Part shown: one piece after another, positions 4,899 to 63,737 of the stretch
Layout: each line of letters begins with the position of its first letter
Position numbering within the stretch: position 1 is the first letter of the stretch
From: a virus
IMG/VR virus record: IMGVR_UViG_3300014502_000004
Coordinates: 1-64,000 of that record
Strand: one strand, 5' to 3'
Length of the DNA: 64,000 bases
Translations under genes and position numbers: made by a program
Notes under the pieces: model-generated
Told to the model about the DNA's origin: nothing
Seen by the model: the letters and a program-made list of their open reading frames with translations, nothing else
Databases searched by the model: none

Positions 4899-4900
4899 AC

Positions 4901-5745: not shown

Positions 5746-5894
5746 AGAAGGTTAACCATGCTGAGTTCGTGCGTGTGATTAAATCACTTGTGAAAGATCT
5801 TCAGTCTTTTGGGACCGAACTGACAACTTTCGAGCAGCAGGCATTGAAGAAAATGCTTATGCTACTCGGACGTGATCCTGGTGTATCTAAATAG
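5742..5894 (+). CDS. Small hypothetical protein (50 aa, not in ORF track)
   Basis: MKKVNHAEFVRVIKSL...; GGGAG RBS; fills gap. Confidence 0.45.
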   Translation: MKKVNHAEFVRVIKSLVKDLQSFGTELTTFEQQALKKMLMLLGRDPGVSK

Positions 5895-5902
5895 GTGATT
5901 TG

Positions 5903-48883: not shown

Positions 48884-49864
48884 ATGTACGTTCCACTGCT
48901 GCACTACATTGCGGTAGAGGGGATCGAGAAATCGTATCAAGATCCATTCACCGTGCTGATGAAGGCAGCGGTGGATCTATCCAAAGCTGATGCGAAGGCA
49001 GTGCAAAGAACGGTTGAGAGAGTAAGTGCTCAGCCTGGATTCCGAGGTAGAGTAGGATCAAGAACTCGATCTGCTTCTTCATCGAAACCACCTGCAGATA
49101 TGCCATCTGGGTTTCGTGGTAGAGTCGAAACCTCCTCAAAACCAGCAAGTATAAGTGGTGAGGCAAAGAAGCCTGCTACCATGGCTTCGCCGATAGTAAT
49201 GGCAAGTGCTGCTGGTCATATTGCTAAACCAGGAGCACAGGTTGTTTCTCCCTCACGAGCTTTAGTGAGTCCTACCGGGCAGTCTGTTTCATCAAAGCAG
49301 CCGATAGAGATTCCTTCTGGTCATCGTGGTGCGGTTGATATCACACCAAAGAAACCAGTTAGTGCAATTTCAACTTCAGAGACTCCATCTTCGAGGCGCA
49401 GTGCAGAAGAAGTTCGTGCTGCACCAGTGCAGCAGAAGATGGAAGGTTTCAGATCAAAGCAAGCAGCTGTTCAAGCAGCAAGACCAAAAGCAGCTGCAGC
49501 CCAGACACCGAGTATTGCAAGTCCACCAACAAGTTCTCCTGCAGAAGCTGGTGCTGAAGAAGCAGCAAAGCCTCCTGCAAAAGTCAAAGAGAAGAAGCCT
49601 TCGCTGTTCTTTCGGCCTGAAGGTGAAGAGGCCAAGCCAACAGCTAAGAAGCGGGGCTATGCCAACATCATGGGTGCTTACTCCACTGGAGTTTCAATGT
49701 CTCCTGGTGGAGCTGGTGCAGGTGCCAGAGTTCTGAGTGTTGCTGGTTGGAAGACAGCTCTTCGTGCTCATCGGTTGTTGAATGCCCGTAGTGGAGGTGG
49801 TGGAGGAATGCGTCAGATCACCACCCAGATGGGACCACGAATTCGAACGGGATCTATGCGATGA
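48884..49864 (+). CDS. Low-complexity head-module protein
   Basis: S/A/P/K-rich; VLMKA and DLSKA motifs. Confidence 0.6.
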   Translation: MYVPLLHYIAVEGIEKSYQDPFTVLMKAAVDLSKADAKAVQRTVERVSAQPGFRGRVGSRTRSASSSKPPADMPSGFRGRVETSSKPASISGEAKKPATMASPIVMASAAGHIAKPGAQVVSPSRALVSPTGQSVSSKQPIEIPSGHRGAVDITPKKPVSAISTSETPSSRRSAEEVRAAPVQQKMEGFRSKQAAVQAARPKAAAAQTPSIASPPTSSPAEAGAEEAAKPPAKVKEKKPSLFFRPEGEEAKPTAKKRGYANIMGAYSTGVSMSPGGAGAGARVLSVAGWKTALRAHRLLNARSGGGGGMRQITTQMGPRIRTGSMR

Positions 49865-50490
49865 AATCAAATCCGAGATTGTATCTATTGGTGAAGGCAG
49901 GAGCAGATCAGGAATCTGGTGGCCGCACTACGATGCCTTCTGGGGGTCAGGCCAAGCGTGAAGATGAGCACAGCTACTCTCGGCAGCCTGAAGGGGAGAG
50001 TGGTGATCCTACCGCAGACACTGCCGAGGAACGATGGCATGGTTCTGGAACCGAGACTGATGAGGATGACCCTCACAAAGATGACAATGAGCAGACTGGT
50101 GAGGAGCGGGATGTTCAGAAGGTGTGGTCCAATCCTCAGGTTCCTTTCCAGCAGAAGGATGTAGCTGAGGCTCCTGCGGAGGCACCCGGGGATGCACCTG
50201 GGGCAGCCCCCGGAGTCATTCCTGGGCAGCAGCAGGCCCCTCCAGGAGAGCAAGCTTCTGTCGTGAAGAGCCTGATGGCTCAAGCCATGAAGGCATTTGC
50301 TGGGGCTCCTCGTTTTGCTCAGGGTCCATTGGTTCCTCCTCGTGAGAAAGAGTGGCTCAAGACTCAGGGGTATTCCCCCGATGAGATCGATTCAGGTCAG
50401 GTTCAAATCACTTCTCGAATGAGGGGTGAGTTCAATCGTTGGCTTCAAGGAACCATCAGGAAGTCTCTTGGTGGTTTGATGAGGGGATAA
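49861..50490 (+). CDS. Head-module protein
   Basis: LLVKA, VVKS, IRKS motifs; directly before portal. Confidence 0.65.
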   Translation: MKSNPRLYLLVKAGADQESGGRTTMPSGGQAKREDEHSYSRQPEGESGDPTADTAEERWHGSGTETDEDDPHKDDNEQTGEERDVQKVWSNPQVPFQQKDVAEAPAEAPGDAPGAAPGVIPGQQQAPPGEQASVVKSLMAQAMKAFAGAPRFAQGPLVPPREKEWLKTQGYSPDEIDSGQVQITSRMRGEFNRWLQGTIRKSLGGLMRG

Positions 50491-50492
50491 CG

Positions 50493-52409
50493 ATGATTGC
50501 TCCCCCTGTGGACTACACTGAGATTCAGAAGTCGATCTCAGCTCAAGAGATGCAAGAAGCCTATCAGGAAGTGGGACGGTTAAGAAATGTCACTTCCCAC
50601 ATTCCTGTTGCTGCTAGAAAAGAGCCAGGGGCTCTTCAGAAGGCATATCGTGGTCTTTCAGATATGGGTCCTAATCGTGGTCCCAAGTCTGCCTTCTTCG
50701 ATCCTCTCTCACTTCAGTATGCGATGGGGTACAAGGACCGTCGCTATTCTCTGACCTATGATGTTCTCAAGCGATGTGCAACTCAGCTCTCAATTGTTGC
50801 TGCTATTGTCAATACTCGAATTGCTCAGATTGCATCGTTTGCTGCTCCGTATCGAACCACGAAGTCTCTGGGGTACATGGTCAAGCACAAAGACCCAGAG
50901 CACATGACAACTCGTGCTGAGCGTGAGTTCATCAAACAGCTTGAAGCATTCGTTGCTAACTGTGGTGAGCCTGGAAAGAAGAATATCTACAGTAGAACTT
51001 CAAGGGATGATTTTGAGTCATTCTTGAAGAAGGTTGTTAGAGACACATTGGTCTATGATCAGCTTTGTTTCGAGATCGTTCCTAGAAACAATAGAATCCC
51101 ATTTGAGTTTCTAGCAATTGATGCAGCCACGATCAGAATTGCATCTACAGATCGCGATGCTGGTATTGGTTTTAGCTACCATGCTCGAAATCCTGTGGCC
51201 CCTCTTGGTGGTCGTTTCGCTGCCCTCTATGAGAACAAGCAGTATGGGGCATTGACAGGAAGCGGCTACGGTGGATTCTCTGATCCTGTCACCGATCAAG
51301 ATGTGCAGTTTGTTCAGATCATCAATGGTCAGATCGAGAACGTCTACAGTGAGAGCGAGCTGGCTTTTGGTGTTCGGAATCCTCGTACTGACATCTACAT
51401 TCAGCAGTACGGTTATGGTGAGATTGAACAGCTCATCACCATCGTGACTTCTCTCCTCTTCTCTGAGGAATACAACCGTCGATATTTCACCCAAGGTTCT
51501 CACCCCAAGGGTTTGCTTAACTTCAAGGGTGATAACTGGACACCAGATCAGCTTGAGGCATTCCGTCGGCAGTGGGTTGCTACTGTGGCGGGTGTTGAGA
51601 ATGCATGGAAGACTCCAATCACTCAGTCTGAAGGAATTGAGTGGATCAACCTTCAGATGACCAACAAGGATATGGAGTTCTCCACCTGGATTGAGTATCT
51701 AATCAAGATCATTTGTGGTGTGTACCTGATTGACCCAGCAGAAATCAACTTCGACCTTCATGGTGGTGTGCAGCAGACGCCACTTTTTGAATCAAGTCAG
51801 GAGTGGAAGCTCAAGGCATCTCGTGATCGTGGTCTGAAGCCGCTCCTTAGGTTCATTGCCAAGCTTATCAACAAGCATGTCATTGACAAGATCGATGATC
51901 ATTTCGTGTTCGAGTTCGTTGGGCTTGATGAGCTGACGGAACAAGAAAAGCACGAGATGATCAAGGAGCAGATCGCAAGCTACATGACTCTTAATGAAGC
52001 TCGTCGGTCTCTCGATCTTCCTGACATTCCGCTGGGTGATGTTCCACAGAATCCTACCTATGTTCAACTGTTGCAGATCTACAACCAGAACATTCAGCAG
52101 CAGCAAGCTCAGCAGCAGCAACAGCAGCAGATGGAACAGCAGCAAGCGATGGCAGCTCAGCAGGGTCAACTTCCTCCTGGGGCCGAGCAGCAGGGTCAGC
52201 TTCCTCCTGGTGCTGAGTCCCCCCAGGGTGGACAGGTTGTGAGGGCTCCCGGTCAGCCCGGTGAGGGAGGCATTCCTGCTGGTCAAGGTCCAGTTCCAGG
52301 CGAGAGGCCAGGAGCCACACCTAAGTACACAGCCAATTTCGGTAAGTCGATGAAAGAAATCGTTGTGACTTTCGACGATTGGATTGATCAAAAGAGGAGT
52401 GACAAATGA
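50493..52409 (+). CDS. Portal protein (SPO1/Twort-like) with Q/P/G-rich C-terminus
   Basis: RNPRTD..YG...E, YNRRYF.QG..PKGLL, NAWKTP, DMEF..W, IDPAEINF, SRDRGLKPLL, MTLNEAR. Confidence 0.92.
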   Translation: MIAPPVDYTEIQKSISAQEMQEAYQEVGRLRNVTSHIPVAARKEPGALQKAYRGLSDMGPNRGPKSAFFDPLSLQYAMGYKDRRYSLTYDVLKRCATQLSIVAAIVNTRIAQIASFAAPYRTTKSLGYMVKHKDPEHMTTRAEREFIKQLEAFVANCGEPGKKNIYSRTSRDDFESFLKKVVRDTLVYDQLCFEIVPRNNRIPFEFLAIDAATIRIASTDRDAGIGFSYHARNPVAPLGGRFAALYENKQYGALTGSGYGGFSDPVTDQDVQFVQIINGQIENVYSESELAFGVRNPRTDIYIQQYGYGEIEQLITIVTSLLFSEEYNRRYFTQGSHPKGLLNFKGDNWTPDQLEAFRRQWVATVAGVENAWKTPITQSEGIEWINLQMTNKDMEFSTWIEYLIKIICGVYLIDPAEINFDLHGGVQQTPLFESSQEWKLKASRDRGLKPLLRFIAKLINKHVIDKIDDHFVFEFVGLDELTEQEKHEMIKEQIASYMTLNEARRSLDLPDIPLGDVPQNPTYVQLLQIYNQNIQQQQAQQQQQQQMEQQQAMAAQQGQLPPGAEQQGQLPPGAESPQGGQVVRAPGQPGEGGIPAGQGPVPGERPGATPKYTANFGKSMKEIVVTFDDWIDQKRSDK

Positions 52410-53671
52410 GCAGACTCAATATGATCAAGTCGAAGAAGAAGCACACTCCTCTTAATCTAGACGAAAAGAAGAGTGCTCGTTTGGTTCCAGAAGCTGGTGC
52501 TCAGATCATGAAAGACTTTGAGCACATGGCTGGAGAGTACAAGAAGATCGATGCAGCAGGTCCGTCAGCCAAACCCCAGCATGTGATGGAAACAGCTCAG
52601 ATGCATGGTTGGTCTACCCCGGCCATGGGTCAGGTCGGCGAAGAGAAGAAGCAGGCTTTAGGTATTCGAACCGGATCAAAACAAACTACTCCCAGGATGG
52701 CTGGAGCTTCTGGTGCCCACACTGTGTCTCATGGTGGTGATGTGATCTCTTCTGCACCAGCAGAGACAAAGACCAAGCCTTATACAAAGCCGTTGAAGCC
52801 AGGATCAACTTTTACAATGCAGTCAGTAGCTAAGCCGGAGAGTGAGAAGAAGGTTGCCTCTATGAGCGGACCTCCTGAGGGTACGCTTCAGGCCGCCTCA
52901 GCAAAGGCTTTCAAGGCTCTGAAGAAGGCTGCCGAGGATCAGGAAAAGCATTATGGGATCCACTATGGGACGAAAGACCCCAAGGGCTCTTTGTCTAGAA
53001 TCAAGAAGTACAAGACCAAACGTGGGAAGATCAAGAATCCGCCCAAGAGTGCAGAGGGTAAGAATGACATGGCTTCTGAGATGATTGCTCACCACATGCA
53101 TCATCTTGGTCGTCATCCAGGTGGTCAGAAGCAAGCAATCGCTATTGGCTTGAATCAGGCCGGTGAGAGCAGAAATGACAAGTCCATGGTCCAGGGCAGT
53201 CCTCAGTATGCCCCCCTTCGACCTAGCCACAAAATGGGTATAGGAGAAAAGTCGATGGAGTCCACCAAGAAGTCGTTTGATGAGTTGATGGATCTGAGCA
53301 AGGCTGTCACGGCGAGGTCGCTGCCTCGTATCCCCCGTGCCCTGCAGCCGCAGAAGGACATCTTCCGTTCTGCCATGGACATCCCCACTAACAAGGATTC
53401 TAGGCTCGCCAAGGACATCCCTTCGATGCACGCTGGGTATCTGAAACCTGATGTGCTAGCTCAGGTTCGTCGGGATGAGGAAGAGCGGACTCACCGTGAG
53501 GTGAACAAGAGCGGTGAACTGCAGGATTGTGATGTCTGTGGTCGTGTGTTCTCCAAGAGCTTCGATGCTTGTCCAACCTGTCAGATTAGCAAGGCGGCCA
53601 TGTGCAAGGCATGTGGGCATCAGATGGTGAAGGGACGAGACGGCGAGCTTCATTGCTCCATCTGCGGGTGA
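52406..53671 (+). CDS. Head-module protein with C-terminal Zn ribbons
   Basis: QKQAIAIGL; CDVC/CPTC/CKAC/CSIC; many K[AS] motifs. Confidence 0.65.
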   Translation: MSRLNMIKSKKKHTPLNLDEKKSARLVPEAGAQIMKDFEHMAGEYKKIDAAGPSAKPQHVMETAQMHGWSTPAMGQVGEEKKQALGIRTGSKQTTPRMAGASGAHTVSHGGDVISSAPAETKTKPYTKPLKPGSTFTMQSVAKPESEKKVASMSGPPEGTLQAASAKAFKALKKAAEDQEKHYGIHYGTKDPKGSLSRIKKYKTKRGKIKNPPKSAEGKNDMASEMIAHHMHHLGRHPGGQKQAIAIGLNQAGESRNDKSMVQGSPQYAPLRPSHKMGIGEKSMESTKKSFDELMDLSKAVTARSLPRIPRALQPQKDIFRSAMDIPTNKDSRLAKDIPSMHAGYLKPDVLAQVRRDEEERTHREVNKSGELQDCDVCGRVFSKSFDACPTCQISKAAMCKACGHQMVKGRDGELHCSICG

Positions 53672-53675
53672 GGTC

Positions 53676-54959
53676 ATGCTCCTGACTGCGACTCAGCTTT
53701 TCGATCTGGCGAGTGACTTGCTCAAGTCTAAGCAGCATCCGACTCAGACGGGGCCACGGGGAGGTAAGTTCTACCTCACGCAGTCAGGGGAGAAGATCTA
53801 TGTTGAGGAAGGTGTGGTTGGAAAGAAGATCAAGGGTGAGACAGAGCCTCCTCAGCTTCTTCTTCACACTACGAGTGCTCCTCATCTTGTTGAGTCCAAG
53901 AAGGATGTTGAGGTTAAGATCGTACCTGGGAAGAAGGAGCTTCCAGCTAGATTCCAATCCAAGATGAAGGTTGGCCATCCTAAGCGAAGCTACATTCGAG
54001 CCCAGGAAAGCAGCAACTGGCCAGCCTATTTTTGTCGAAACTGTAATTCAGCAATCGTCCCTAATCATGATCACCCTGTGACAGTTCAGAGGGTAATTAG
54101 GAATCCACGAACGAATCAGGTTGAAGGTCGTGTTGGGGAGACTGTAGGTAATACAACTGATGTGACACAGATCAATCCCAAAACTGGAGAGAAGAAGTAC
54201 ATCGATCCTCCAGATCCTGCTGCTGTGGCTCAGAAACTCTGCCCCACTTGTTTCAAGCAGCATGCGGTCCAGAGTCGTGAGGTCACAGGTCGTGTTCCAG
54301 CTCTTAAGCTGACTGTAGCGAGCCGGACCAAGATGAAGGAAGTCAAGGCTGCTGCCAAGCTTCTTGAGGGAGCACTGAAGAAGCTTCCGATCAAACGGTC
54401 TAAGGAGGAGCAGAGGTCAATTAGGGAGCATGAGGCTACCCAGGCTACTCAGGCCAGAGCAGAAGCCAAAAGGCTCAAAGCTGCTGGTCTTCCAACGACT
54501 GTGCGTCGTGAGCGAGAAGCAGCTGCAATGAATAGGGAAGAGACAGAGGCTCAGGCAAAGATCAGAACTAGGTTCAAGAATCATCTCATCAGACAGGGGA
54601 CGGATGAGGCTACGGCTAGTGAGTCAGCCAACAAGATGACCCCTGTTGAGATTCGACAGTTCCGTGATCAGTCTGCTCATGAAGAGTCAGTTAGAGGTGA
54701 GGAGACACGGCAGAGGTTAGGGAAGGAGCTGGAAGGAAAGAAGCTAGTCCGTGTTGTAGGAATGAGCCAGCTCATGGATTTGATGGAACGTCGCAAGCAT
54801 GGTGTTCCTGGAAGTGAAGAGGAGCATGGTGCTACATTCGAGGGGTTGAACCCAACCAAGGCTCGTCAGGATGAAGCGACACGGACAGAGAAGTTACGAG
54901 ATCGTCAAGAGAAGGAATCCAAGATCAAGAAGAGTGTTGGTCTTTGGATGTCCGTATAG
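53676..54959 (+). CDS. Head-module protein (GPRGG motif, Zn finger)
   Basis: DLLKS..TGPRGGKFY; CRNC...CPTC. Confidence 0.65.
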   Translation: MLLTATQLFDLASDLLKSKQHPTQTGPRGGKFYLTQSGEKIYVEEGVVGKKIKGETEPPQLLLHTTSAPHLVESKKDVEVKIVPGKKELPARFQSKMKVGHPKRSYIRAQESSNWPAYFCRNCNSAIVPNHDHPVTVQRVIRNPRTNQVEGRVGETVGNTTDVTQINPKTGEKKYIDPPDPAAVAQKLCPTCFKQHAVQSREVTGRVPALKLTVASRTKMKEVKAAAKLLEGALKKLPIKRSKEEQRSIREHEATQATQARAEAKRLKAAGLPTTVRREREAAAMNREETEAQAKIRTRFKNHLIRQGTDEATASESANKMTPVEIRQFRDQSAHEESVRGEETRQRLGKELEGKKLVRVVGMSQLMDLMERRKHGVPGSEEEHGATFEGLNPTKARQDEATRTEKLRDRQEKESKIKKSVGLWMSV

Positions 54960-54969
54960 GAGAAGATAG

Positions 54970-55437
54970 ATGCCTCACAACCCGTATGCAGGCCACATTC
55001 CCCTCAATCTCCGCAACAGCAAGACTGATGAGGAGCTGAGCAAGTCCACGAGCTATCGAGAGGGGATCACGCACCCAACTGAGTACCGCACACCCCAGCA
55101 GGACCCTTCTCTGCTGAGGAACGAAGGCTGCACTCCTCTTCGTCGCTACCCTGATGGCAGGCTCGACACCGAGTTTGTGGCCAGCCAGGTTATCGACATG
55201 ATCCACAAGGCTGAGAGTGGTGGCAACCTGACTAGCTTTGAGCAGTCCATTCTCACTCTGATCCTCCCTCAGAAGTTCCAGCTGGTGAATCCCAAGATTG
55301 CTGGAACCATGGCCAGGATGACAGAGGAGGAGCGGGGTCTGGTTTCTCTTCGTGTGCTTCGACATATGAATGAGGAGCTGAACTGGAACACCGGCAGGGG
55401 CGGTTCGGTGCCGTTCCACCATGTCACAAAGAGTTAG
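54970..55437 (+). CDS. Head-module protein
   Basis: AGGAG RBS. Confidence 0.65.
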   Translation: MPHNPYAGHIPLNLRNSKTDEELSKSTSYREGITHPTEYRTPQQDPSLLRNEGCTPLRRYPDGRLDTEFVASQVIDMIHKAESGGNLTSFEQSILTLILPQKFQLVNPKIAGTMARMTEEERGLVSLRVLRHMNEELNWNTGRGGSVPFHHVTKS

Positions 55438-55657
55438 GCTTCAGGTTCCTGAGGACTTGAGCACCGATGATGTGATCAAGTCTTTGGAGGCAACCATCGA
55501 GACGCTGAGGAAGGGTGGTCCAGATCCCGACCTCAGTGTTTTGTTATCTGGAGAGAACCCTGCAGCGTCTCATCTGGTGAAGTTTGTAGATGATTCATTT
55601 GATATCATGATGAATAGTCTGGCCAAGGAAATATCCAAGGTACTTAGCTCAAAATGA
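55421..55657 (+). CDS. Small head-module protein
   Basis: DVIKS motif; tiling. Confidence 0.55.
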   Translation: MSQRVRLQVPEDLSTDDVIKSLEATIETLRKGGPDPDLSVLLSGENPAASHLVKFVDDSFDIMMNSLAKEISKVLSSK

Positions 55658-55830
55658 AGTCTACTATTTCTCAGAGACTTACTGTAAAGAAATCACTGTC
55701 TACAGATGGTGATCGTATTTTGAAACTTCTGGTTAATGAGTATCATATGCAGCACATGGATGCAGTTAAGTTGATGATGGACGGTGGACCGATGTTAGCT
55801 GTGGCGTTGATTAAACTTACACAGGGGTAG
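55654..55830 (+). CDS. 58-aa protein (not in ORF track)
   Basis: MKSTISQRLTVKKSL...; ATGA overlap, fills gap exactly. Confidence 0.5.
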   Translation: MKSTISQRLTVKKSLSTDGDRILKLLVNEYHMQHMDAVKLMMDGGPMLAVALIKLTQG

Positions 55831-55833
55831 AGC

Positions 55834-57174
55834 ATGCTCATCTATCTTGATGAGGGTCTGTTTAAGATTTCAGACAAATTGTGGAAAGCTCTACCTAAGG
55901 GTAAAGAGGCATTTGGTAGTCGTCTGTCCAGATACGATGAGCCGGCTACACCAAAGGTGGCGAAACCTGCTGTTGCTGCAGTTCCAAAACCTACTACTCC
56001 TGCTCCCGTGCGTGGGCCAGACGTTTCGTCTCCAGGTCATCAGCTGGCCACACACGAAGCAGCTGCTGGTCATGCCCAACATGGGTACATGATGCACATG
56101 CTGAATAATGAACCAGAACATGCCAGAAAAATGTTGGGCATGTATCAGACTCACACTGCTCGTGCTGGTATTCTGAAGCAGCAGGGAGCTGTGACTACTC
56201 CACAACATCACGAAGATTTAGCTGTTCATTATCACTTGAATCGAGATCAGTATTCTGGGAGTAAGACTCCTGTTTATTCTAGAATCAAAGCTCATCTTCA
56301 GCACGCTGGTCATCCTCCTGGGACTGACATCAATGATGTAGCGGAAGCTCATGCTACCAAGACCAAAGAATCTGCAGAAGGGGGGTATGGTCCGTATAGT
56401 TCCAGCAACAATAAGATGGGGACAGCGGCTCCTTATGCAGATAAGCCGATTGGTGCTGAGGAAGGGACTTCAGTTAGGCGTCGGGTAGCGAAGTCTTTGA
56501 TTGATTGGGATTGTGATCTCATCAAAGCTAAGGTTGGTAGACATATTGATCTTTCCAAGGATGCTTTGCAGAGGAAGCTCAACGGTGGTCACTATTCTTT
56601 GGTGTCAGCTGGCAGGAACATAGAAGACCCAGAAGAGAAGGATCTGCCAGAGAATCATCCCAAGTTCTTAGCCAGGCATGAGAAGCTTAGAAGTGATCTA
56701 ATCAACCATGGATTAGATCACACTGAGGTTGAAGGTCATTGGGGTGGTAAAGAGAAGTCATTTCTAGTTCATCATGTACCAAAGGCTAAGGTTGCCACTC
56801 CTAGGAATGTGATGACAAAGACATTCATGGTTCATCACAATGATCCTAGTGAGCATAGCACTGTCAGAGATCTGGCTAAGAAGTACAATCAGAATAGTGT
56901 CATCCACTCAAAAGGTGGATATCATGAGTGCCATTATGTAACTGGTGCAGATGCAGGAACCCATAACAAAGGCGCAGGTCATACTCTGAAGCCTGAAGCT
57001 ACAGACTTGTACACTGAAGTTCCTCATCCCAACAAGACATCAACCAAGTTTGAGCTGAAGTTGGATTGGAATAACAAGCATCCTGCAAAGACTGCTGTAC
57101 TGAAATCACTGACAAGACTGTACATCAACAAGACGAGTCTGAAGAAGGCGTTTCCTCTCTTCATTCGTCTGTAG
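55834..57174 (+). CDS. Head-module protein containing a T3 gp0.3-like SAM lyase domain
   Basis: YSLVSAGR...RH...GHW..KEKS..V...VRDLA...QNSVI aligns with T3 SAMase motifs as recalled. Confidence 0.65.
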   Translation: MLIYLDEGLFKISDKLWKALPKGKEAFGSRLSRYDEPATPKVAKPAVAAVPKPTTPAPVRGPDVSSPGHQLATHEAAAGHAQHGYMMHMLNNEPEHARKMLGMYQTHTARAGILKQQGAVTTPQHHEDLAVHYHLNRDQYSGSKTPVYSRIKAHLQHAGHPPGTDINDVAEAHATKTKESAEGGYGPYSSSNNKMGTAAPYADKPIGAEEGTSVRRRVAKSLIDWDCDLIKAKVGRHIDLSKDALQRKLNGGHYSLVSAGRNIEDPEEKDLPENHPKFLARHEKLRSDLINHGLDHTEVEGHWGGKEKSFLVHHVPKAKVATPRNVMTKTFMVHHNDPSEHSTVRDLAKKYNQNSVIHSKGGYHECHYVTGADAGTHNKGAGHTLKPEATDLYTEVPHPNKTSTKFELKLDWNNKHPAKTAVLKSLTRLYINKTSLKKAFPLFIRL

Positions 57175-57183
57175 GAGAAGACC

Positions 57184-57801
57184 ATGCGTAGCGACATGAT
57201 TGGCCCCCGAAGGCTTCAGCCTGCCAAGACGGAAGACACATGCAATCCTATTTTCGTTCTTGTGAACGAAGATCCTCATCGTGTGCTCAAGTCTCAGGTG
57301 ATGCCTGGTGTCACTGAGGGGCAGATGAATGGGGCGTTGCCTCGGATTCCAAGTACCCGTCCTGGGCTGTATCTGGAGGAGAAGGTTGAGAAGGCTCAGG
57401 TAGTGGAGAAGGACTTTGACAGTGGCGAATCTCAGGAGGTCGAAGCTGCGTTGCGGAGCAAGCCTGTTGGTATTCCTCATCTTGGTATTGATCGTCCTGG
57501 GACTCGTGCGGAGGCTGAAAAGAAGAAGAAGCGTATGCTAGTTGGTCCAGTTATAAAGAAGGCCAAGATACATTCAGCTCATTCATCATTGACGGAAGCT
57601 GAGTTGGAAAAGCATCCAATTGGTACGGTGTTAAGGATTCATCGTCCTGGTAGGCGACCTCAGACACTAACTAGGGAAGACTATCAGCATCATATGACTG
57701 GTAAGACTCATTGGCGACATAACTCTGGTGATAGAATGTCACACATGGGTGTTGAAAGGCAACTGGGTGAAATGGGATATAAGGTGATTGGTAAGGACTA
57801 A
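57184..57801 (+). CDS. Head-module protein
   Basis: AGGAG RBS; VLKS, VEKA, IKKA. Confidence 0.6.
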   Translation: MRSDMIGPRRLQPAKTEDTCNPIFVLVNEDPHRVLKSQVMPGVTEGQMNGALPRIPSTRPGLYLEEKVEKAQVVEKDFDSGESQEVEAALRSKPVGIPHLGIDRPGTRAEAEKKKKRMLVGPVIKKAKIHSAHSSLTEAELEKHPIGTVLRIHRPGRRPQTLTREDYQHHMTGKTHWRHNSGDRMSHMGVERQLGEMGYKVIGKD

Positions 57802-57806
57802 GGTGA

Positions 57807-59210
57807 ATGGTTCTTACCAGAGCCCAGATCGAGAAGCTTGCTGAGATCATCCGTCAACATGCTACCTGGTTTGCTTGGCGGGTTTTCGGAGAGCAAGAGA
57901 TCTCAGACAAGGATTTGCAGCAGCTCAAGTCGAGCGGCAAGCTGCCAATGGATGTCCATGCCCAGTCGATCAAGTATGCCTATGTCCTGGGTAAGCTAGA
58001 GTCTGTCCTCAAGGAAGGTGAGTACAAGAATCTGAGCTGGACCCAGCTGCAGGAGGCTGCAGAGGGCAGGTACACGACGGTCGACAAGCTGGCCATTGAT
58101 GCTGCTGAGCTGTCTGCTCACACGAGGTTCAGGAACCTCATTGATGATATGAGGAATGGTCTGTACCAGAAACTGTCCCAGGCCACCAACCAGACCATTT
58201 CAGAAGCCAGCATCAAAGAGACCATCGCTGATAAGATCAGAACTGGTGTAGATCTGAGCCAAGCCTACACCAAGGTTGCTAATGAGCTGGTAGATGCTCT
58301 GCAGGAAACCAAGAGGAATTGGTCACGAGTAGCAGCCACAGAGATGCACTCAGCCCGTCAACGTGGGATTGCTGCTGCCATCATTCAGAAGGAAGACATC
58401 TACAAGTATTCTGACGGTATTGATAGCAATGTAGCTGTGGTCCATGACTACGATATGTGTGATGACTGCAGGCGTTTGTACTATGATCCTAAGACAGGTA
58501 ATCCAAAGATCTTCAAGCTGAAGGAGCTGCTTGATAACGAGGGTTCAAATTATCGTAGACCATGGCGACAGAATGCTAAACCTGTACTCCCACCAGCTCA
58601 CCCCCACTGTTATGGAAGACTTCATTATGTTCCTGCTGGATGGGGATGGGATGACCAGCATGAGTTCACTCTTCTAGATCCAGCTGAAGCCTATCCTGAA
58701 GTGGTGAAGGGCAAGATTCTAGACGTTCCCAGCTACAGGCAGAAAGAGAAGTACACCTGTGGCCCATCTGCATTTCTTGCTGTGCTTGAGTATTACAAGT
58801 TCAAGGATGTTCCTGATGAGAAGAAGCTAGCTGAAGCCCTTGGATCAACTGAAGAGGGTGGAACAAGACCAGAGGATATCGAGAAGCTGGCGAACAAGTG
58901 TGGTCTCAAGGCTTCGATTCAAGAACCAATGGAGATTGATGATCTTGAGAAGCTGACTGATGATGGTGTGCCGGTCATTGTTGCTATGCAGGCATGGCGG
59001 GACACGAAGGCTACACCTTGGGCGAGTGATTGGGATGATGGTCACTACGAAGTGGTGATCGGTGTGGACAAAGATGAGATCCATTTCGAGGACCCATCTG
59101 TGTCGAAGAAGAGAGCGTTCATCCACAGAGATGAGTTTTTGAAACGTTGGCATGATGTTGATCGAGATGGAAAGAAACGAATCCATCTTGGGATAGTGAT
59201 ACGACCATGA
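57807..59210 (+). CDS. MuF/SPP1 gp7-like head morphogenesis protein fused to C39-like cysteine peptidase
   Basis: RNWSRVAATE, C..C, PPAHPHC; then RQ...TCGP, GHYEVVIG, FEDP. Confidence 0.82.
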   Translation: MVLTRAQIEKLAEIIRQHATWFAWRVFGEQEISDKDLQQLKSSGKLPMDVHAQSIKYAYVLGKLESVLKEGEYKNLSWTQLQEAAEGRYTTVDKLAIDAAELSAHTRFRNLIDDMRNGLYQKLSQATNQTISEASIKETIADKIRTGVDLSQAYTKVANELVDALQETKRNWSRVAATEMHSARQRGIAAAIIQKEDIYKYSDGIDSNVAVVHDYDMCDDCRRLYYDPKTGNPKIFKLKELLDNEGSNYRRPWRQNAKPVLPPAHPHCYGRLHYVPAGWGWDDQHEFTLLDPAEAYPEVVKGKILDVPSYRQKEKYTCGPSAFLAVLEYYKFKDVPDEKKLAEALGSTEEGGTRPEDIEKLANKCGLKASIQEPMEIDDLEKLTDDGVPVIVAMQAWRDTKATPWASDWDDGHYEVVIGVDKDEIHFEDPSVSKKRAFIHRDEFLKRWHDVDRDGKKRIHLGIVIRP

Positions 59211-60313
59211 ATCCATTCGATGAGCTTGAGATGATCTCCAAGGGTGAGTTGATTCCTGGTGGCAAGGCTTCAGGAAAGCCAAAGCCCCAGGATGATCATG
59301 AGTCCAAGAAGACTGGTCGTGAGATTGAAATGGAGCATGTGGAAGGCGGTCCTTTGCCCAAGAAGGTGAAGGAAGCTGTAGCTGATGAGATCCACGATGA
59401 TCACGTCGAAGAACATCCTGGTTACTATGATGACAAGATTGGTCTTCCAGCCATGGAGCGCCAATTGGACAAGGTGGGGAAGTCTGATTCAGGCTCGTTC
59501 CGTGGTGGTGATCCTGAGCTGGCTCAGCAGAAGCAGCAGGAAGCCAAGGATGAGGCTGCAGATCAAGATATGGGTGGGGATGATGCTGGGGATGATGCTG
59601 GGGATGCAGCTGAGCCAGATGAGGATGCTGAGATCGCTCAGCAGGACAAAGATGATACGAAGTCTGACAAGATGGCGAGCCTGACGAAGGCTGGTGGATT
59701 CCCATCTATTCCAATGGGCAGTCAGGAAGTTTCGCCTGTCAACACGGATGAGGACTACTTTGATGACAGAGATCCCAAGCGGAACGTCAACAATTACTAT
59801 CTTCAGTTCCGTGGTCGTCAAGCCCCATTCAAAGAGCCTTGTCCGTTGGATCGCCGTGAACACCAACATGAGGTCTGGTCAGAGGCTCTGGGTTACCGAA
59901 TCCCCCTTGAGGGGAACCCCGCTATGTATCTCCGTAGGTTCAATTTAGCTGGGGACAAGGAAGGATATGAGCAGGCTTTGAAGGAGGTTTTTAAATCAGA
60001 CCAGGATGAACAAGAACCAGATCAGAATCCTGAGCAAGATTCTGAGCAGGGTGAGTCTAATGAAGAGGAGCCACCTGGCCCCAAGATGTTGCTTCAGCAT
60101 CTAAATGAATTTAGCAAAGATCAATTGATTCAGATTTCCAAGAAGATCTGGGGTGACGACTACAATTATCAGGATTGGATGGATGACGATTATATTAGAA
60201 ATGATATTGCTGGTTCACTGATGGATCTACTGGAAGGTGATGGAGATAATCCATTTGAGGATGGAATGGATCAGCAGCCTGAGGAATCGGAAAGTGCTTC
60301 CTCTGCTGATTGA
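59207..60313 (+). CDS. Acidic head-module protein with DUF5661-like N-terminus
   Basis: IPGGKA...GREIEMEH...EI.DDH..E.PGYYD..L..ME. Confidence 0.6.
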   Translation: MNPFDELEMISKGELIPGGKASGKPKPQDDHESKKTGREIEMEHVEGGPLPKKVKEAVADEIHDDHVEEHPGYYDDKIGLPAMERQLDKVGKSDSGSFRGGDPELAQQKQQEAKDEAADQDMGGDDAGDDAGDAAEPDEDAEIAQQDKDDTKSDKMASLTKAGGFPSIPMGSQEVSPVNTDEDYFDDRDPKRNVNNYYLQFRGRQAPFKEPCPLDRREHQHEVWSEALGYRIPLEGNPAMYLRRFNLAGDKEGYEQALKEVFKSDQDEQEPDQNPEQDSEQGESNEEEPPGPKMLLQHLNEFSKDQLIQISKKIWGDDYNYQDWMDDDYIRNDIAGSLMDLLEGDGDNPFEDGMDQQPEESESASSAD

Positions 60314-63300
60314 CATAACCAAGGCTCGCAAGGGTGAGCATGTTGGTGGCAAGTACATTCTTCGTTGGTGGAAGAGTGAACGCTGGAACTATAAGTATTC
60401 AGATCTACAGAATCCGAATCATGGTCCAGCCAGTACAGCTACTGAGAAGCACACCATTGATGTACATCCTCAATCACTGAGGTCCGAGCATTCCCCTGAG
60501 CAGGCGTTTCACTATGCCAGGCATCAAGCTCTGAGAGGAACAAAAGAGCACACTGCAGTTATTCTGTCCAAGAAGGGGGCTCCAAAGTACAAGGTCCTGG
60601 TTCGCCCATCCTCTGTCAGACCGATCATCATTCTGCCTCCAAACTCAAACCAAGCTCAGGATGCTATCACTACCCTTCCAAACTTTGCATCGTTGGATAA
60701 CTGGGCTCATCGGAGAAGGACAACTAGAACTGTCCGTGACGCTCAAGGGAAGCCTTGGTTTGAGTTGAGGGACCGTGGACCTACCAGGGACAATCCCAGT
60801 GGCAAGATGAGTGTCAGGTACTGCGCTAGCAGTCCTCACAATCCCTTCCCTGGTGAGCCTCCTCAGTGGGCTGCCAGCCCATTCACGAAGGAGACGGCCA
60901 AGGAGTGGATAAAGGAGCAGCGGAGGCAGCAGAGAGCCTCTGGGCAGCGTGTGAAGCCTGCCAAGAGGTTTCCTATCGATAGGGATAGGCCAGCCACTAC
61001 AGCTCTTGAGCAAGGTCGAATCACTTGGACCAGAGTTCGTAAGCCGTACTCCATTGTGTTCCATGAGAGGACTGGCAAGACCACACAGCGTCGTGGGACT
61101 AGACCCATAAGACATGCTCAGTTCAAATCTGATGAAGATCGAAAGAACTTCTATGCCAAGGTTGTGAAGGAGCATTTTGGTCAGATAGTGCTGTACGCAG
61201 AACGTCAATTGAAGATGTACAATATATTTGATGTAGAGCAAATGGCTAGACTTCTTGGCTACTACGGTGGTCCTGGTCGTTCTTCCAATATCCAGATTGA
61301 ACCAGAGTCACCTACCATGACTGCTGTTGAGAGAGCAGTCAATTCTTATGATCCTGAGAAGGGTTGGAAGTTCAATACCTATCTTGGTCATTGCCTGTGG
61401 TGGGAAAACTTCAAAGAGACAAAGAAGATACTTGGTGAATTAAAGGAACGGCAGAAGATGGTCACGACGTTGGACCACAGTGGTCACACCCATGATGTGA
61501 TCACGAATCTTCAACGCAAGGATATGCATCCTGACCATGAGGCAATTGTCAGTGTAGGGGCACACACAGGTGAGCCAGATGTGAACCTGCTGGCGAAGCA
61601 GGAGAAGCTGAAGGATTGGTCCACCAGGCAAGAGGACAAGATTGCTCGCTTCACAGCAGCAGCTGGTGATGACCACGAGAGGCAGGTAACATCCTTTCTT
61701 GCTGCCACTGATCTACATGAGATCAAATCTCCTGAGCAGGCTCAGGCATTCATTGCTCACTGGCAGTCTGATGGTGGGGACGAGTTCGTGGAGCCCTATG
61801 AGGCTGAGGAAGTATCTAGACCCAAGGTCAAGATTCCTGCCAGCGAGAAGAAGTCCTGGGTGACCATGGTGACAGAGCATCCTCTGCTTTCTTCGGCTGA
61901 GAAGGCGGCTCTACTGACCTTTGCTCCTAAAGGTGATCTTCAGAACATTCGACCGTTCACAGAGGTGTCGCTGGAGTTGGCGAAGAAGCATTCGAAAGAG
62001 TTTTCTCGTCCACCGTCTGAGCATCAATTGGTTGACATCTTTCTGAGTGCCCACCAGAAGCTGGCCGGTCTACCGGAGTTTGAGGCAATGCAAGCAAAGC
62101 TCTCTCCAGTGATGAAGGCGATCAATCTCATTCGAAAGCTTCAGCTCGACAAGATCTCCCAGGCTTCAGATATTCTTAGGAAGGCCAAGAAGGGGGAGAA
62201 GGTTCAAGGCTACAAGTATTGGAAGCGGGAGGGGGTTCCTGGTCACTACAAGTATTACTATCATGATGCAAAGGGAAACATCATTGAAGGGACTAATGCT
62301 CCGGAGGATCATAAGCATCATCAGCCGTCATTAGGTTCTCCTCAGGTGGCCAAGAACGAGCCAACTCAGAAGGAAAACCCTGAGTATTTTGATGCCAAGG
62401 GTCGGAAGATGAATCGGGCAGTTCCAGATCATGCTGAGTGGAATCCTGAGTATGACAAGGATACTCACAGCAAGAGATGGGCAGCTCGTTGGCCTAAGGA
62501 AGATGGGTCTGACTACGAGTACGGTTATCCTGATTCTGATGTTCAGGAGAACAAGGAACTCTCAATCAATACCAGCAACAAGCATCTGGATGAGCAGCTG
62601 CCAAAGGTTCGCAAGGCTTACAAGTCACTGATGGGTTCTGATGCTCTTTCAGATCGTGCTCTTGGTTTGATGGTTGCTTTGCTTGACCAGGCTTTCATGA
62701 GAGTAGGTAAAAAGGCTCATGAGCAAGCAACAGGTCATGTGGCTTTGGTTTCTCTCAAGAAGTCCAATGTCAGTGTGAAGGGTAATGTTGTTTCGTTCTC
62801 TTATATTGGTAAGCGTGGAATGGAACAGAATCAGAATGTGGTTCTTGATTCTAAAGCCATGGGGATTGTCAAAGATCTCCTGACTGCACCCGGAAAGAAG
62901 GACAAGGATTACTTCTTCTCTGTGCCAGTAAAGCGTGGTGGTAGGACCAAGTACCAGGAGATCGGCTACAACAAGCTCGTGAGAAACCTGCAGAGCCTTG
63001 GTGTTCAGGCAAAGCAGTTTCGTTCTTATCATGGCACCAGGCTCTACTCAGAGTATTTCGAGGAACTGGCTGAGAAGATCAAGGGTAAGCCAACAGGACA
63101 GATGCTGGACAAGATCTCTGAAGCCGCAGCTATGAAGGTAGCCGCAGCTCTGGGTCACTTCAAGAAGGAAGGCGAAGATCAGAAGACTCACACAGCTAAT
63201 GCCTTCAGTAGCTACATCGATCCTGTTGTGGTGAAGACTCTCTATCTCAATTCGCTGCATCCTGATTTCAACAAGTCGATTGAGGAAGTTGAGAAATCTC

Positions 63301-63734
63301 ATCCTGTCGAAGAGAAGGTTTCATATGATGGGGTGAAGATCGATATAGAGAACAAGAAGGGGAGCACCAGGAACTGGTACGATCCGAATGAGGACAAAGA
63401 GGGCAAGACCAGGATGAACTACGACTATGGGTTCATTCCTCACACGGAGGGTGTGGATGGGGATGGGGTTGATGTGTATATTGGTCCAAGCAAAGATTCG
63501 GCTCGTGTGTTTGTGATCCGCCAGATGAAGGGGCCTGACTTCAAGAAGTATGATGAAGACAAGGTGATGATGGGGTTCAGCTCACCTGAGGAAGCCAAAG
63601 CAGCCTACATGAAGCAGTATGATGACCCCAAGTTCTTTGGTGACATGAAAGAGATGACCATTCCGGAGTTGAAAGAGAAGATCAAGGATAAGAAGTACGA
63701 AGGCAAGATGCTCAAGTGCGTTAGTCTGGGGTGA
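60294..63734 (+). CDS. Polyvalent protein: sigma-70-like domain + DNA topoisomerase IB + inorganic-pyrophosphatase-like (InPase) domain
   Basis: sigma2 RAVNSYDPEKGWKFNTY; TopIB MRVG, GKRG, KQFR, LGH, SYIDP; InPase IEN.KGS.R, YGFI..T.G.DGD.VDV, DE.KVM.GF; likely GTG start 60294. Confidence 0.85.
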   Translation: MLPLLIDITKARKGEHVGGKYILRWWKSERWNYKYSDLQNPNHGPASTATEKHTIDVHPQSLRSEHSPEQAFHYARHQALRGTKEHTAVILSKKGAPKYKVLVRPSSVRPIIILPPNSNQAQDAITTLPNFASLDNWAHRRRTTRTVRDAQGKPWFELRDRGPTRDNPSGKMSVRYCASSPHNPFPGEPPQWAASPFTKETAKEWIKEQRRQQRASGQRVKPAKRFPIDRDRPATTALEQGRITWTRVRKPYSIVFHERTGKTTQRRGTRPIRHAQFKSDEDRKNFYAKVVKEHFGQIVLYAERQLKMYNIFDVEQMARLLGYYGGPGRSSNIQIEPESPTMTAVERAVNSYDPEKGWKFNTYLGHCLWWENFKETKKILGELKERQKMVTTLDHSGHTHDVITNLQRKDMHPDHEAIVSVGAHTGEPDVNLLAKQEKLKDWSTRQEDKIARFTAAAGDDHERQVTSFLAATDLHEIKSPEQAQAFIAHWQSDGGDEFVEPYEAEEVSRPKVKIPASEKKSWVTMVTEHPLLSSAEKAALLTFAPKGDLQNIRPFTEVSLELAKKHSKEFSRPPSEHQLVDIFLSAHQKLAGLPEFEAMQAKLSPVMKAINLIRKLQLDKISQASDILRKAKKGEKVQGYKYWKREGVPGHYKYYYHDAKGNIIEGTNAPEDHKHHQPSLGSPQVAKNEPTQKENPEYFDAKGRKMNRAVPDHAEWNPEYDKDTHSKRWAARWPKEDGSDYEYGYPDSDVQENKELSINTSNKHLDEQLPKVRKAYKSLMGSDALSDRALGLMVALLDQAFMRVGKKAHEQATGHVALVSLKKSNVSVKGNVVSFSYIGKRGMEQNQNVVLDSKAMGIVKDLLTAPGKKDKDYFFSVPVKRGGRTKYQEIGYNKLVRNLQSLGVQAKQFRSYHGTRLYSEYFEELAEKIKGKPTGQMLDKISEAAAMKVAAALGHFKKEGEDQKTHTANAFSSYIDPVVVKTLYLNSLHPDFNKSIEEVEKSHPVEEKVSYDGVKIDIENKKGSTRNWYDPNEDKEGKTRMNYDYGFIPHTEGVDGDGVDVYIGPSKDSARVFVIRQMKGPDFKKYDEDKVMMGFSSPEEAKAAYMKQYDDPKFFGDMKEMTIPELKEKIKDKKYEGKMLKCVSLG

Positions 63735-63737
63735 CCT

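What the first reader, a model, noticed from the sequence alone, without database searches (positions are those of the whole stretch)
56527..57105. T3-type SAM lyase domain embedded in a head-cluster protein
Seen: YSLVSAGR...ARHEKL...EGHWGGKEKSFLV...VRDLAKKYNQNSVI, bounded by DLIKA and AVLKS. Knowledge (recalled): T3 gp0.3 has YVLVSAFR...SRH...GCY...EEKTVRV...VARLA...EQDCVL; it destroys SAM and counters type I restriction-modification and BREX. The Glu and Gln appear retained, while Tyr is replaced by Trp. Inference: a virion-delivered anti-restriction enzyme rather than the usual early-expressed one.
Basis: partly seen in the sequence, partly recalled or inferred. Interest (0 to 1): 0.78.

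Follow-up and report, generated by a model that had tools for sequence, protein, structure and literature searches.

The report
Head-packaged T3-type SAM lyase module
An uncultured SPO1/Twort-like phage encodes, among its head genes, a T3-type enzyme domain that should destroy the methyl donor SAM, framed by likely head-protease cut sites, so it is probably carried in the capsid and injected with the DNA rather than made early like T3's enzyme.

Summary
ORF 55834-57174 (446 aa) contains every quoted string, and 56527-57105 is exactly residues 232-424.

This segment is a true relative of the phage T3 SAM lyase:
- Pfam PF23780 scores above its cut-off.
- A confident AlphaFold model (pLDDT 91.6) has T3 SAMase as its top hit in both fold searches (Z 11.0, next family Z 6.1).
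- The family signature G-x-Y/W...E...Q-[D/N]-S falls on the most conserved columns of 50 diverse homologues.

Packaging is supported by context only:
- The gene lies in a 19-kb block between the portal and the prohead protease, scaffold and capsid genes.
- Homologues carry the domain fused to InPase, topoisomerase IB, GNAT, Zeta-toxin and ddrB-ParB domains, which are typical of polyvalent proteins.
- The domain is bounded by hydrophobic-x-K|[S/A] motifs. These are strongly enriched at the N-termini of head-block proteins (p 2e-8). One aligns with the start of the shorter, 24-residue-truncated phi812-type capsid chain in the PDB.

No enzyme activity or virion presence was shown.

The idea is not new. 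A virion-associated SAM hydrolase was reported in cyanophage S-CREM2 (2023). This scan has already noted packaged SAM lyases on other DNA: 65 notes in at least 56 genomes. This case adds a new lineage and a new protease type.

The parts
55834..57174 (+). Complete ORF, 446 aa (P0002): precursor of the SAM-lyase cargo protein. It starts 3 nt after the upstream stop, behind a GGGG-containing RBS-like stretch, and the next gene follows after 9 nt.
   Evidence: No promoter or terminator signal above chance in 48-64 kb.
55834..55887 (+). N-terminal leader, aa 1-18, ending in LWK|A. It resembles the leaders of neighbouring head-block proteins (for example ...DLLK|S at 53676, ...DLMK|A at 63738, ...DLIK|S on the protease). 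Proposed propeptide or capsid-targeting leader.
   Evidence: The leader and its K|A site are kept in homologues P0003, P0004 and P0009. The function is inferred.
55888..56526 (+). aa 19-231: Pro/Ala-rich stretch, then a His-rich helical region (about 61-182, moderate pLDDT 72-81), then a disordered linker. Carries the motif sites VAK|S (218-221) and LIK|A (229-232). No known family.
   Evidence: Variable among homologues.
56527..57105 (+). aa 232-424: T3-type SAM lyase domain, the conserved core of the family. Lies exactly between the putative cleavage sites K231|A232 and K424|S425.
56734..56742 (+). G301-H302-W303, the counterpart of Svi3-3 G56-V57-Y58 and T3 G55-C56-Y57 (ribose packing and the aromatic against the sulfonium).
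   Evidence: Gly in 48/50 and Tyr 43 / Trp 5 in 50 homologues. hhalign pairs TEVEGHW with TDLTGCY. Residue roles are from PMC7877911.
56752..56754 (+). E307, the proposed counterpart of catalytic Glu69 (Svi3-3) and Glu68 (T3). The local motif E-K-S-F-x-V compares with T3 E-K-T-V-x-V.
   Evidence: Glu in 48/50. It sits at the start of the strand after the G-x-W hairpin in the confident model. The register is ambiguous because hhalign and the shallow full-length model use the repeated strand TFMVHH instead.
56890..56898 (+). Q353-N354-S355, the counterpart of Svi3-3 Q104-E105-S106 and T3 Q94-D95-C96 (binds the methionine moiety of SAM).
   Evidence: Gln in 50/50; the next column holds D 27, N 9, E 5; Ser in 46/50. 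Aligned to T3 EQDCV by hhalign.
57106..57171 (+). aa 425-446: short C-terminal tail after VLK|S, with one more motif (LKK|A). Probably removed.
   Evidence: Inference.
50439..52409 (+). Portal protein, the upstream limit of the head-cargo block.
   Evidence: PF04860 E 4.7e-21; phrog_12 E 6e-55.
57807..59210 (+). 467-aa protein with a C-terminal C39-like cysteine peptidase. A neighbouring candidate cargo protein.
   Evidence: PF13529 E 5.6e-13.
60237..63734 (+). 1165-aa topoisomerase IB + InPase protein, a neighbouring candidate cargo protein. In relative P0013 the same architecture carries the SAM-lyase domain at its C-terminus.

Best explanation
ORF 55834-57174 encodes a precursor that is made late with the head genes and loaded into the prohead. 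The head maturation protease, a Herelleviridae-type enzyme that cuts after Lys in hydrophobic-x-K|[S/A], then cuts it. Cleavage at K231|A232 and K424|S425 would free a 193-residue T3-type SAM lyase, which travels in the capsid and enters the cell with the DNA. In the cell it would convert S-adenosylmethionine to methylthioadenosine and homoserine lactone by the unimolecular mechanism shown for Svi3-3 and T3. That would starve SAM-dependent defences (type I/III restriction-modification, BREX) before any phage gene is expressed. Shown here: the sequence, the family and fold assignment, conservation of the signature residues, the gene context, the domain fusions and the motif statistics. Inferred: catalysis on SAM, loading into the head, cleavage at the two sites, ejection, and the anti-defence role.
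For: Family and fold:
- PF23780 scores above its cut-off, as it does in most homologues.
- The AlphaFold model has pLDDT 91.6.
- The Foldseek top hit is 7OCK_K, T3 SAMase, prob 1.00.
- VIA-align gives Z 11.0 over 131 of 152 residues. Svi3-3 follows at Z 6.1 and generic ferredoxin-like folds at 5.4 or less.

Active site: G301 (48/50), W/Y303 (48/50), E307 (48/50), Q353 (50/50) and S355 (46/50) are among the most conserved columns. They match the only strictly conserved residues of proven SAM lyases (PMC7877911).

Packaging context:
- The gene lies between the portal and the protease, scaffold and MCP genes.
- The same module occurs in relatives L005 and L006, where the gene sits at another position. 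Homologues also lie between portal and MCP in L023, and downstream of the portal (no MCP match found) in L022.
- The domain is fused to InPase, Topoisom_I, GNAT, Zeta_toxin and ddrB-ParB in proteins of up to 2455 aa. Iyer et al. 2017 describe these domains (InPase above all) in phage proteins predicted to be packaged and injected.

Protease sites:
- [LIVMF]-x-K-[SA] occurs within the first 45 residues in 17 of 21 head-block ORFs against 14 of 89 others (Fisher p 2.2e-8).
- The MCP and the protease are homologous to those of SPO1/Twort-like phages.
- The phi812-type MCP is deposited full-length with VVK-S at residues 22-25 and also as a 439-residue chain that starts right after that Lys. This position aligns with LQK|A of the window's MCP.
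- The K-[S/A] site at the C-terminal end of the domain is kept in all 10 close homologues, and each has such a site upstream of the domain.

Precedent: a SAM hydrolase was detected by mass spectrometry in purified S-CREM2 virions (PMC10665884).
Against: - There are no biochemical or proteomic data for this protein or any close homologue.
- Sequence-only links to T3 are weak: hhalign against a T3-family profile gives E 0.006 and probability 6%, and PDB sequence searches find nothing.
- The catalytic Glu assignment is ambiguous. The domain holds two similar strands (KEKSFLVHH and TKTFMVHH), and hhalign and the shallow-alignment model use the second one, which has no conserved acid.
- This protein has Trp and Asn where the family consensus has Tyr and Asp.
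- Many conserved His residues and a conserved 25-residue insert have no counterpart in T3, so the substrate could differ.
- More distant homologues of about 280 aa sit in non-structural neighbourhoods, so the domain is not always virion-linked.
- Quantitatively, tens of injected copies at about 10 per second (Svi3-3 kcat 9.5 per second) would need minutes to clear about 1e5 SAM molecules per cell (cell figure from my own knowledge). That is slow compared with restriction.
Confidence: 0.5

Rival explanations
1. The fold and chemistry are the same, but the substrate differs. The packaged domain cleaves a SAM-derived signal such as SAM-AMP (the type III CRISPR messenger), or another sulfonium nucleoside, and acts as an injected anti-signalling enzyme rather than a bulk SAM destroyer.
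For: - The SAM lyase superfamily includes enzymes specific for SAM-AMP. One phage protein with an extra N-terminal domain does not touch SAM at all (PMC12255297).
- A few injected copies are enough to destroy a rare messenger but are marginal against the bulk SAM pool.
- The family has conserved His residues and an insert that T3 lacks.
Against: - The best structural match by far is T3 SAMase, a SAM-specific enzyme, and not the PII-like trimeric Svi3-3 and SAM-AMP lyase type (Z 11.0 against 6.1).
- No type III CRISPR or CorA link was seen.
- The AMP-binding residues of SAM-AMP lyase were not examined.
Confidence: 0.13
2. It is an active SAM lyase that is made late but not packaged. It works in the producing cell, for example to keep progeny DNA unmethylated or to shut down host methylation, and its position in the head operon only sets its timing.
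For: - T3 SAMase keeps T3 DNA unmethylated (PMC8406200).
- Stand-alone homologues occur outside structural modules.
- No virion data exist for this family.
Against: - The domain borders coincide with the head-block protease motif, and the N-terminal leader resembles those of neighbouring head-block proteins.
- Recurrent fusion to polyvalent-protein domains argues for co-delivery.
Confidence: 0.15
3. It is a non-catalytic derivative of the SAM lyase fold. It could be a stoichiometric binder (for example of the host SAM synthetase MetK, as T3 SAMase also is) or an internal head structural or DNA-associated protein.
For: - T3 SAMase inhibits MetK by forming heteropolymers, independently of catalysis.
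- This protein carries W303 and N354 instead of the consensus Tyr and Asp.
- The Glu register is uncertain.
Against: - The SAM-binding signature (Gly, aromatic, Glu, Gln-x-Ser) is the most conserved part of the family across 50 diverse members, which points to selection on the active site.
- Svi3-3 Y58F and E105Q lose only 3- to 5-fold activity.
- Stoichiometric inhibition by a few injected copies is implausible.
Confidence: 0.1

Closest known systems
Bacteriophage T3 gp0.3 SAM lyase (SAMase; PDB 7OCK; Pfam PF23780)
   Same: The fold matches over the whole 152-residue enzyme (Z 11.0, 131 residues aligned). Shared motifs are Y-x-L-V-S-A-x-R, R-H, T-x-x-x-G-x-Y/W, E-K-[TS]-hydrophobic-x-V and Q-[DN]-[CS]-V.
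   Different: T3's enzyme is a free 152-aa protein and the first gene expressed after infection. Here the domain is residues 232-424 of a 446-aa late head-module precursor. It has a shorter hairpin after G-x-W, a conserved insert of about 25 residues holding a repeated strand, and many conserved His residues. Sequence identity is about 13%. MetK binding was not assessed.
Svi3-3 SAM lyase (PDB 6ZM9/6ZNB) and the three strictly conserved residues Gly56, Glu69, Gln104
   Same: It is the second-best structural hit (Z 6.1). The Gly, aromatic, Glu and Gln-acid-Ser signature is conserved.
   Different: Svi3-3 is a PII-like trimer without the C-terminal beta region. The present domain is of the T3 type.
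Virion-associated SAM hydrolase of cyanophage S-CREM2 (ORF6; Front Microbiol 2023, PMC10665884)
   Same: It is a SAM-degrading enzyme found in purified virions by mass spectrometry, and the authors proposed that it is encapsidated.
   Different: That phage is a T4-like cyanophage. No similarity to the present domain was detectable by tblastn. The paper describes no loading or cleavage signals. Here the evidence is genomic only.
Polyvalent proteins (Iyer et al. 2017) and packaged anti-restriction proteins (T4 IPI*, P1 Dar; recalled)
   Same: The gene sits in a virion module, its domain shuffles among large multi-domain proteins with InPase, ddrB-ParB and Zeta toxin (Zeta_toxin by Pfam in P0022, no PF23780 hit there), and it is predicted to be delivered with the DNA.
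   Different: The text of the 2017 paper does not use the terms S-adenosylmethionine, AdoMet, SAM or SAMase. Here the module stands in its own 446-aa ORF and would be released by the protease.
SAM-AMP lyases (C. botulinum; phage AcrIIIB4 candidate; PMC12255297)
   Same: They belong to the same superfamily, keep the Glu and Gln, and the phage version also has an N-terminal extension.
   Different: They are PII-like trimers specific for SAM-AMP. They do not appear among the top structural matches here.

Membership tests
SAM lyase family (Pfam PF23780; T3 gp0.3, Svi3-3) | Match to the family profile above the curated threshold | tested here: met
   30.2 bits against a cut-off of 28, E 4.9e-7, residues 280-385. 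Confirmed by the genome search. Homologues score up to 39 bits.
SAM lyase family (Pfam PF23780; T3 gp0.3, Svi3-3) | T3 SAMase fold (two helices packed on a nine-stranded barrel-like sheet) | tested here: met
   The model has pLDDT 91.6. 7OCK is the top hit in both Foldseek (prob 1.00, E 1.4e-3) and VIA-align (Z 11.0, rmsd 3.8, 131 aligned), well above the next unrelated folds at Z 5.4.
SAM lyase family (Pfam PF23780; T3 gp0.3, Svi3-3) | The strictly conserved Gly, Glu and Gln plus the aromatic residue (Svi3-3 G56, Y58, E69, Q104) | tested here: met
   G301 in 48/50, W/Y303 in 48/50, E307 in 48/50 and Q353 in 50/50. Caveat: whether E307 equals T3 E68 depends on which of two repeated strands is the true counterpart.
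SAM lyase family (Pfam PF23780; T3 gp0.3, Svi3-3) | Significant profile-profile similarity to the T3 subfamily | tested here: inconclusive
   hhalign of A2 against A3 gives E 0.0059 and probability 6% over 91 columns. PDB sequence and profile searches found no SAM lyase.
SAM lyase family (Pfam PF23780; T3 gp0.3, Svi3-3) | Oligomer with active sites at subunit interfaces (T3 dimer, Svi3-3 trimer) | not testable with these tools
   Needs size-exclusion chromatography or a solved structure of residues 232-424.
SAM lyase family (Pfam PF23780; T3 gp0.3, Svi3-3) | Converts SAM to MTA and homoserine lactone | not testable with these tools
   Needs an enzyme assay.
Head-packaged, protease-processed cargo / polyvalent proteins | Gene lies inside the virion morphogenesis module | tested here: met
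   Gene order is portal 50439-52409, then this ORF, then prohead protease, scaffold and MCP at contig 71591-75109. Homologues lie within the head-gene module in L005/L006 (upstream of protease, scaffold and MCP), between portal and MCP in L023, and downstream of the portal in L022.
Head-packaged, protease-processed cargo / polyvalent proteins | Domain recurs in variable fusions with other polyvalent-protein domains | tested here: met
   InPase, Topoisom_I, GNAT, Zeta_toxin and ddrB-ParB occur in homologues of 1000-2455 aa. Of 154 family representatives, 74 are 600 aa or longer.
Head-packaged, protease-processed cargo / polyvalent proteins | Module flanked by cleavage sites of the phage's own prohead protease | tested here: inconclusive
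   The motif is strongly enriched at head-block N-termini (p 2.2e-8). It aligns with the start of the shorter (24-residue-truncated) deposited phi812-type MCP chain. The protease is homologous to Twort-like ones. Actual cleavage of this protein was not observed.
Head-packaged, protease-processed cargo / polyvalent proteins | Protein physically present in virions | not testable with these tools
   The phage is uncultured. The only precedent is S-CREM2 ORF6.
SAM-AMP lyase (type III CRISPR / AcrIIIB4 type) | PII-like trimeric fold closest to Svi3-3 and C. botulinum SAM-AMP lyase, with AMP-stacking residues | tested here: inconclusive
   No SAM-AMP lyase chain appears among the 50 listed matches, and Svi3-3 reaches only Z 6.1 against 11.0 for T3. 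The AMP-binding residues were not mapped.

The most novel reading that the evidence does not exclude
The 19-kb block between portal and protease is a protease-released injected enzyme kit: SAM-lyase module, topoisomerase IB, pyrophosphatase, C39 peptidase and an SNF2 translocase. Within it, the SAM-lyase-fold module, with its His-rich conserved additions, does not deplete bulk SAM. Instead it destroys a SAM-derived defence messenger such as SAM-AMP. That would make it the first virion-delivered anti-signalling enzyme of this kind.
Probability: 0.1. Interest if true: 0.8.

Novelty: new variant of a known kind. Interest (0 to 1): 0.5.

Why it matters
T3's SAM lyase is the textbook early anti-restriction enzyme. 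A version pre-loaded in the capsid would act before any phage transcription, at the moment when SAM-dependent type I/III restriction and BREX decide the fate of the incoming DNA.

The domain family is large: 371 cluster representatives, most of them in multi-domain proteins. It is shuffled together with InPase, topoisomerase IB and ParB-like modules. SAM destruction may therefore be a common but undescribed component of the injected polyvalent toolkit.

The case also gives a testable cleavage code (hydrophobic-x-K|S/A) for cargo release in SPO1/Twort-like heads.

Its value is tempered by two facts. A virion-associated SAM hydrolase has already been reported in one cyanophage, and this scan has already flagged the same theme in many other genomes.

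Tried and rejected
- The dimer prediction (two copies of residues 235-425 plus SAM) returned no verdict (score 0.00). It is neither support nor counter-evidence.
- PDB sequence searches with the protein and with the family profile found only chance hits such as antibody chains.
- A megablast of the head block against cultured phages found nothing. tblastn found only Myxococcus phage Mx1, at 30% identity.
- The full-length fold with a 10-sequence alignment was poor (pLDDT 56). It was used only to note a helical N-terminal region and the alternative strand register.
- The ESM Atlas search of residues 19-231 gave no usable lead.
- Literature searches gave no direct statement of the Herelleviridae protease cleavage site and found no Mx1 virion proteomics. 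The PDB chain comparison was used in place of a cleavage-site reference.
- Pfam did not confirm a MuF domain in the neighbouring 467-aa protein, only the C39 peptidase.
- The VPK|A motif at 315-318, inside the low-confidence insert, is not conserved in homologues. I treat it as a chance occurrence.

Full report
**Observation.** The window is the first 64 kb of a 77.6-kb linear IMG/VR phage contig, about 53% complete, with all genes on the + strand. ORF 55834-57174 encodes 446 residues.

**Is it a SAM lyase domain?**

Sequence evidence:
- Pfam gives PF23780 (S-AdoMet_lyase) at E 4.9e-7 and 30.2 bits, above the 28-bit cut-off, over residues 280-385.
- The conserved core is longer than that match. 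In nine near homologues, residues about 240-425 are conserved while both flanks vary freely.
- An exhaustive HMMER search with the core found 371 cluster representatives at E 1e-3 or better, with lengths of 146-2455 aa and the domain at any position.

Structural evidence:
- A 50-sequence alignment gave an AlphaFold model with mean pLDDT 91.6. Only residues 315-340 are uncertain.
- Foldseek against the PDB ranks T3 SAMase (7OCK) first, with prob 1.00 and E 1.4e-3. Svi3-3 also appears in the list.
- The Foldseek-independent VIA-align search of 48,161 chains gives T3 SAMase at Z 11.0, with 131 of 152 residues aligned over model residues 8-177. Svi3-3 follows at Z 6.1, and generic ferredoxin-like folds score 5.4 or less.
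- The match covers the C-terminal beta region that distinguishes T3 SAMase from Svi3-3 (PMC8406200). The label 'T3-type' is therefore justified.

Limits: sequence-only links are weak. hhalign against a 17-member T3-family profile gives E 0.006 and probability 6%. PDB sequence searches find nothing.

**Active site.** Guo et al. 2021 found only Gly56, Glu69 and Gln104 strictly conserved among proven SAM lyases. Tyr58 packs on the sulfonium, and T3 Glu68 is the equivalent of Glu69 (PMC7877911).

In 50 diverse members of the present family the corresponding columns are the most conserved ones:

| Residue here | Conservation in 50 homologues |
|---|---|
| G301 | Gly 48/50 |
| W303 | Tyr 43, Trp 5 |
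| E307 | Glu 48/50 |
| Q353 | Gln 50/50 |
| N354 | Asp 27, Asn 9, Glu 5 |
| S355 | Ser 46/50 |

The window protein has Trp and Asn at two positions where Svi3-3 mutants lose only 3- to 5-fold activity.

One caveat applies. The domain holds two similar strands, KEKSFLVHH (306-314) and TKTFMVHH (329-336).
- The confident model pairs the first strand with the G-x-W strand and leaves the second in a low-confidence loop.
- hhalign and the shallow-alignment full-length model use the second strand.
- Only the first strand carries an invariant acid, so E307 remains the best candidate. A residue-level superposition was not available.

**Is it a head cargo?**

Gene order:
1. Portal (50439-52409).
2. Five ORFs.
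3. This ORF.
4. A 205-aa ORF.
5. A C39-peptidase protein.
6. A 368-aa ORF.
7. A topoisomerase IB + InPase protein.
8. A 492-aa ORF.
9. A 1799-aa SNF2-like protein.
10. Prohead protease, scaffold and major capsid protein (contig 71591-75109).

Genes abut each other, and no promoter or terminator signal exceeds chance.

The capsid protein and the protease are 30-43% identical to those of SPO1-, CP-51- and Twort-like phages of the Herelleviridae.

Protease motif:
- I found that [LIVMF]-x-K-[SA] lies within the first 45 residues of 17 of 21 ORFs between 48.9 and 75.1 kb, against 14 of 89 elsewhere (Fisher p 2.2e-8). It is often preceded by Asp or Glu, and several proteins share a leader of the form L-F-x-L/I...D-x-hydrophobic-K.
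- The PDB holds the phi812-type capsid protein in two forms: the full 463 residues, with V-V-K-S at 22-25, and a 439-residue chain that starts exactly after that Lys. This position aligns with L-Q-K|A of the window's capsid protein, and SPO1 Gp6.1 has L-N-K-A there.
- The motif is therefore very probably the maturation-protease site.
- In the target protein it occurs at 16-19, 218-221, 229-232, 422-425 and 436-439. It frames exactly the conserved domain (A232-K424).
- The K-[S/A] at the domain's C-terminal end is kept in all ten close homologues, and each has such a site upstream.

**Relatives.**
- In L005 and L006 (capsid protein 76% identical) the SAM-lyase gene sits elsewhere in the same block, between the TopoIB-InPase gene and the SNF2 gene.
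- In P0013 the domain is fused to the C-terminus of a TopoIB-InPase protein.
- Other homologues carry InPase, GNAT, Zeta-toxin or ddrB-ParB domains. Iyer et al. 2017 describe these domains (InPase above all) in proteins predicted to be packaged and injected. The text of that paper does not use the terms S-adenosylmethionine, AdoMet, SAM or SAMase.
- In L023 (a 170-kb contig that, like Mx1, gives only a remote ~29% match to the domain) the homologue lies between portal and capsid genes; in L022 it lies downstream of the portal, with no capsid match found. In Mx1 and L014 it lies next to the tail sheath gene.
- More distant forms of about 280 aa (L010, L017, L019, L021, L026) sit among non-structural genes. 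The domain is therefore not always virion-linked.

**Mechanism proposed.** The precursor is made late, loaded into the prohead and cut by the protease, which frees a 22-kDa SAM lyase. The enzyme is ejected with the DNA and destroys SAM, blunting SAM-dependent defences before phage transcription starts. Only the anatomy is shown here; the rest is inferred.

A quantitative doubt remains. At about 10 turnovers per second per enzyme, tens of copies need minutes to clear a cell's SAM. This keeps open the rival that the real substrate is a rarer SAM-derived messenger such as SAM-AMP (PMC12255297).

**Novelty.**
- SAM lyases and packaged anti-restriction proteins are both known.
- A SAM hydrolase was detected in purified virions of cyanophage S-CREM2 in 2023 (PMC10665884).
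- This scan has already recorded the same theme on other DNA, in 65 notes from at least 56 genomes. Most are T4-like cyanophages, jumbo gut phages and Mx1 relatives.
- New here are the Herelleviridae-like lineage, release by a Lys-specific protease code, and the evidence that the domain is a shuffling module of polyvalent proteins.

I rate it a new variant of a known kind, of moderate interest.

Noticed in passing
window 48884-64000 and contig 64001-75109: Hydrophobic-x-K-[S/A] motifs sit near the N-termini of almost all head-block proteins and between domains. Examples are sites 1011 and 1018 between the TopoIB and InPase domains of the 1165-aa protein, and ten sites in the scaffold. This looks like a protease-released cargo system.
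   Followed up: partly
window 56749-56851: Two similar strands (KEKSFLVHH and TKTFMVHH) occur within the SAM-lyase domain, separated by a conserved insert that models poorly. Two structure predictions chose different strands, which suggests a strand duplication or a switchable element.
   Followed up: partly
homologues P0052, P0096; window residues 280-319: Pfam DUF3293 (PF11697, a bacterial family of unknown function) hits the N-terminal half of this domain, above its cut-off in some homologues. DUF3293 proteins may therefore be relatives of the SAM lyase fold.
   Followed up: no
window 60237-63734: A 1165-aa protein combines a eukaryotic-type topoisomerase IB catalytic core with an InPase pyrophosphatase inside the head module. 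In relative P0013 the same architecture also carries the SAM-lyase domain.
   Followed up: partly
contig 65570-70969 (beyond the window): A 1799-aa protein with an SNF2/ResIII helicase region lies in the head block and is conserved in L005 and L006 (52% identity). It is reminiscent of packaged DarB-type proteins.
   Followed up: no
window 57807-59210: A 467-aa protein has a C-terminal C39-like cysteine peptidase. Pfam did not confirm the MuF domain suggested by another first-stage note.
   Followed up: partly
window 28378-31278 and 3621-7810: The terminase large subunit lies about 20 kb upstream of the portal, separated from the head genes. An AAA (MoxR-like) gene and a CobT/VWA gene pair sit at the left end of the window.
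   Followed up: no
L010, L017, L019, L021, L026: Stand-alone homologues of about 280 aa (33-39% identical; 24% in L026) occur in non-structural neighbourhoods next to glycosyltransferases, a tRNA nucleotidyltransferase and a phrog_850 RNA-binding protein, including in a 356-kb jumbo phage. They may be an expressed rather than packaged branch of the family.
   Followed up: partly
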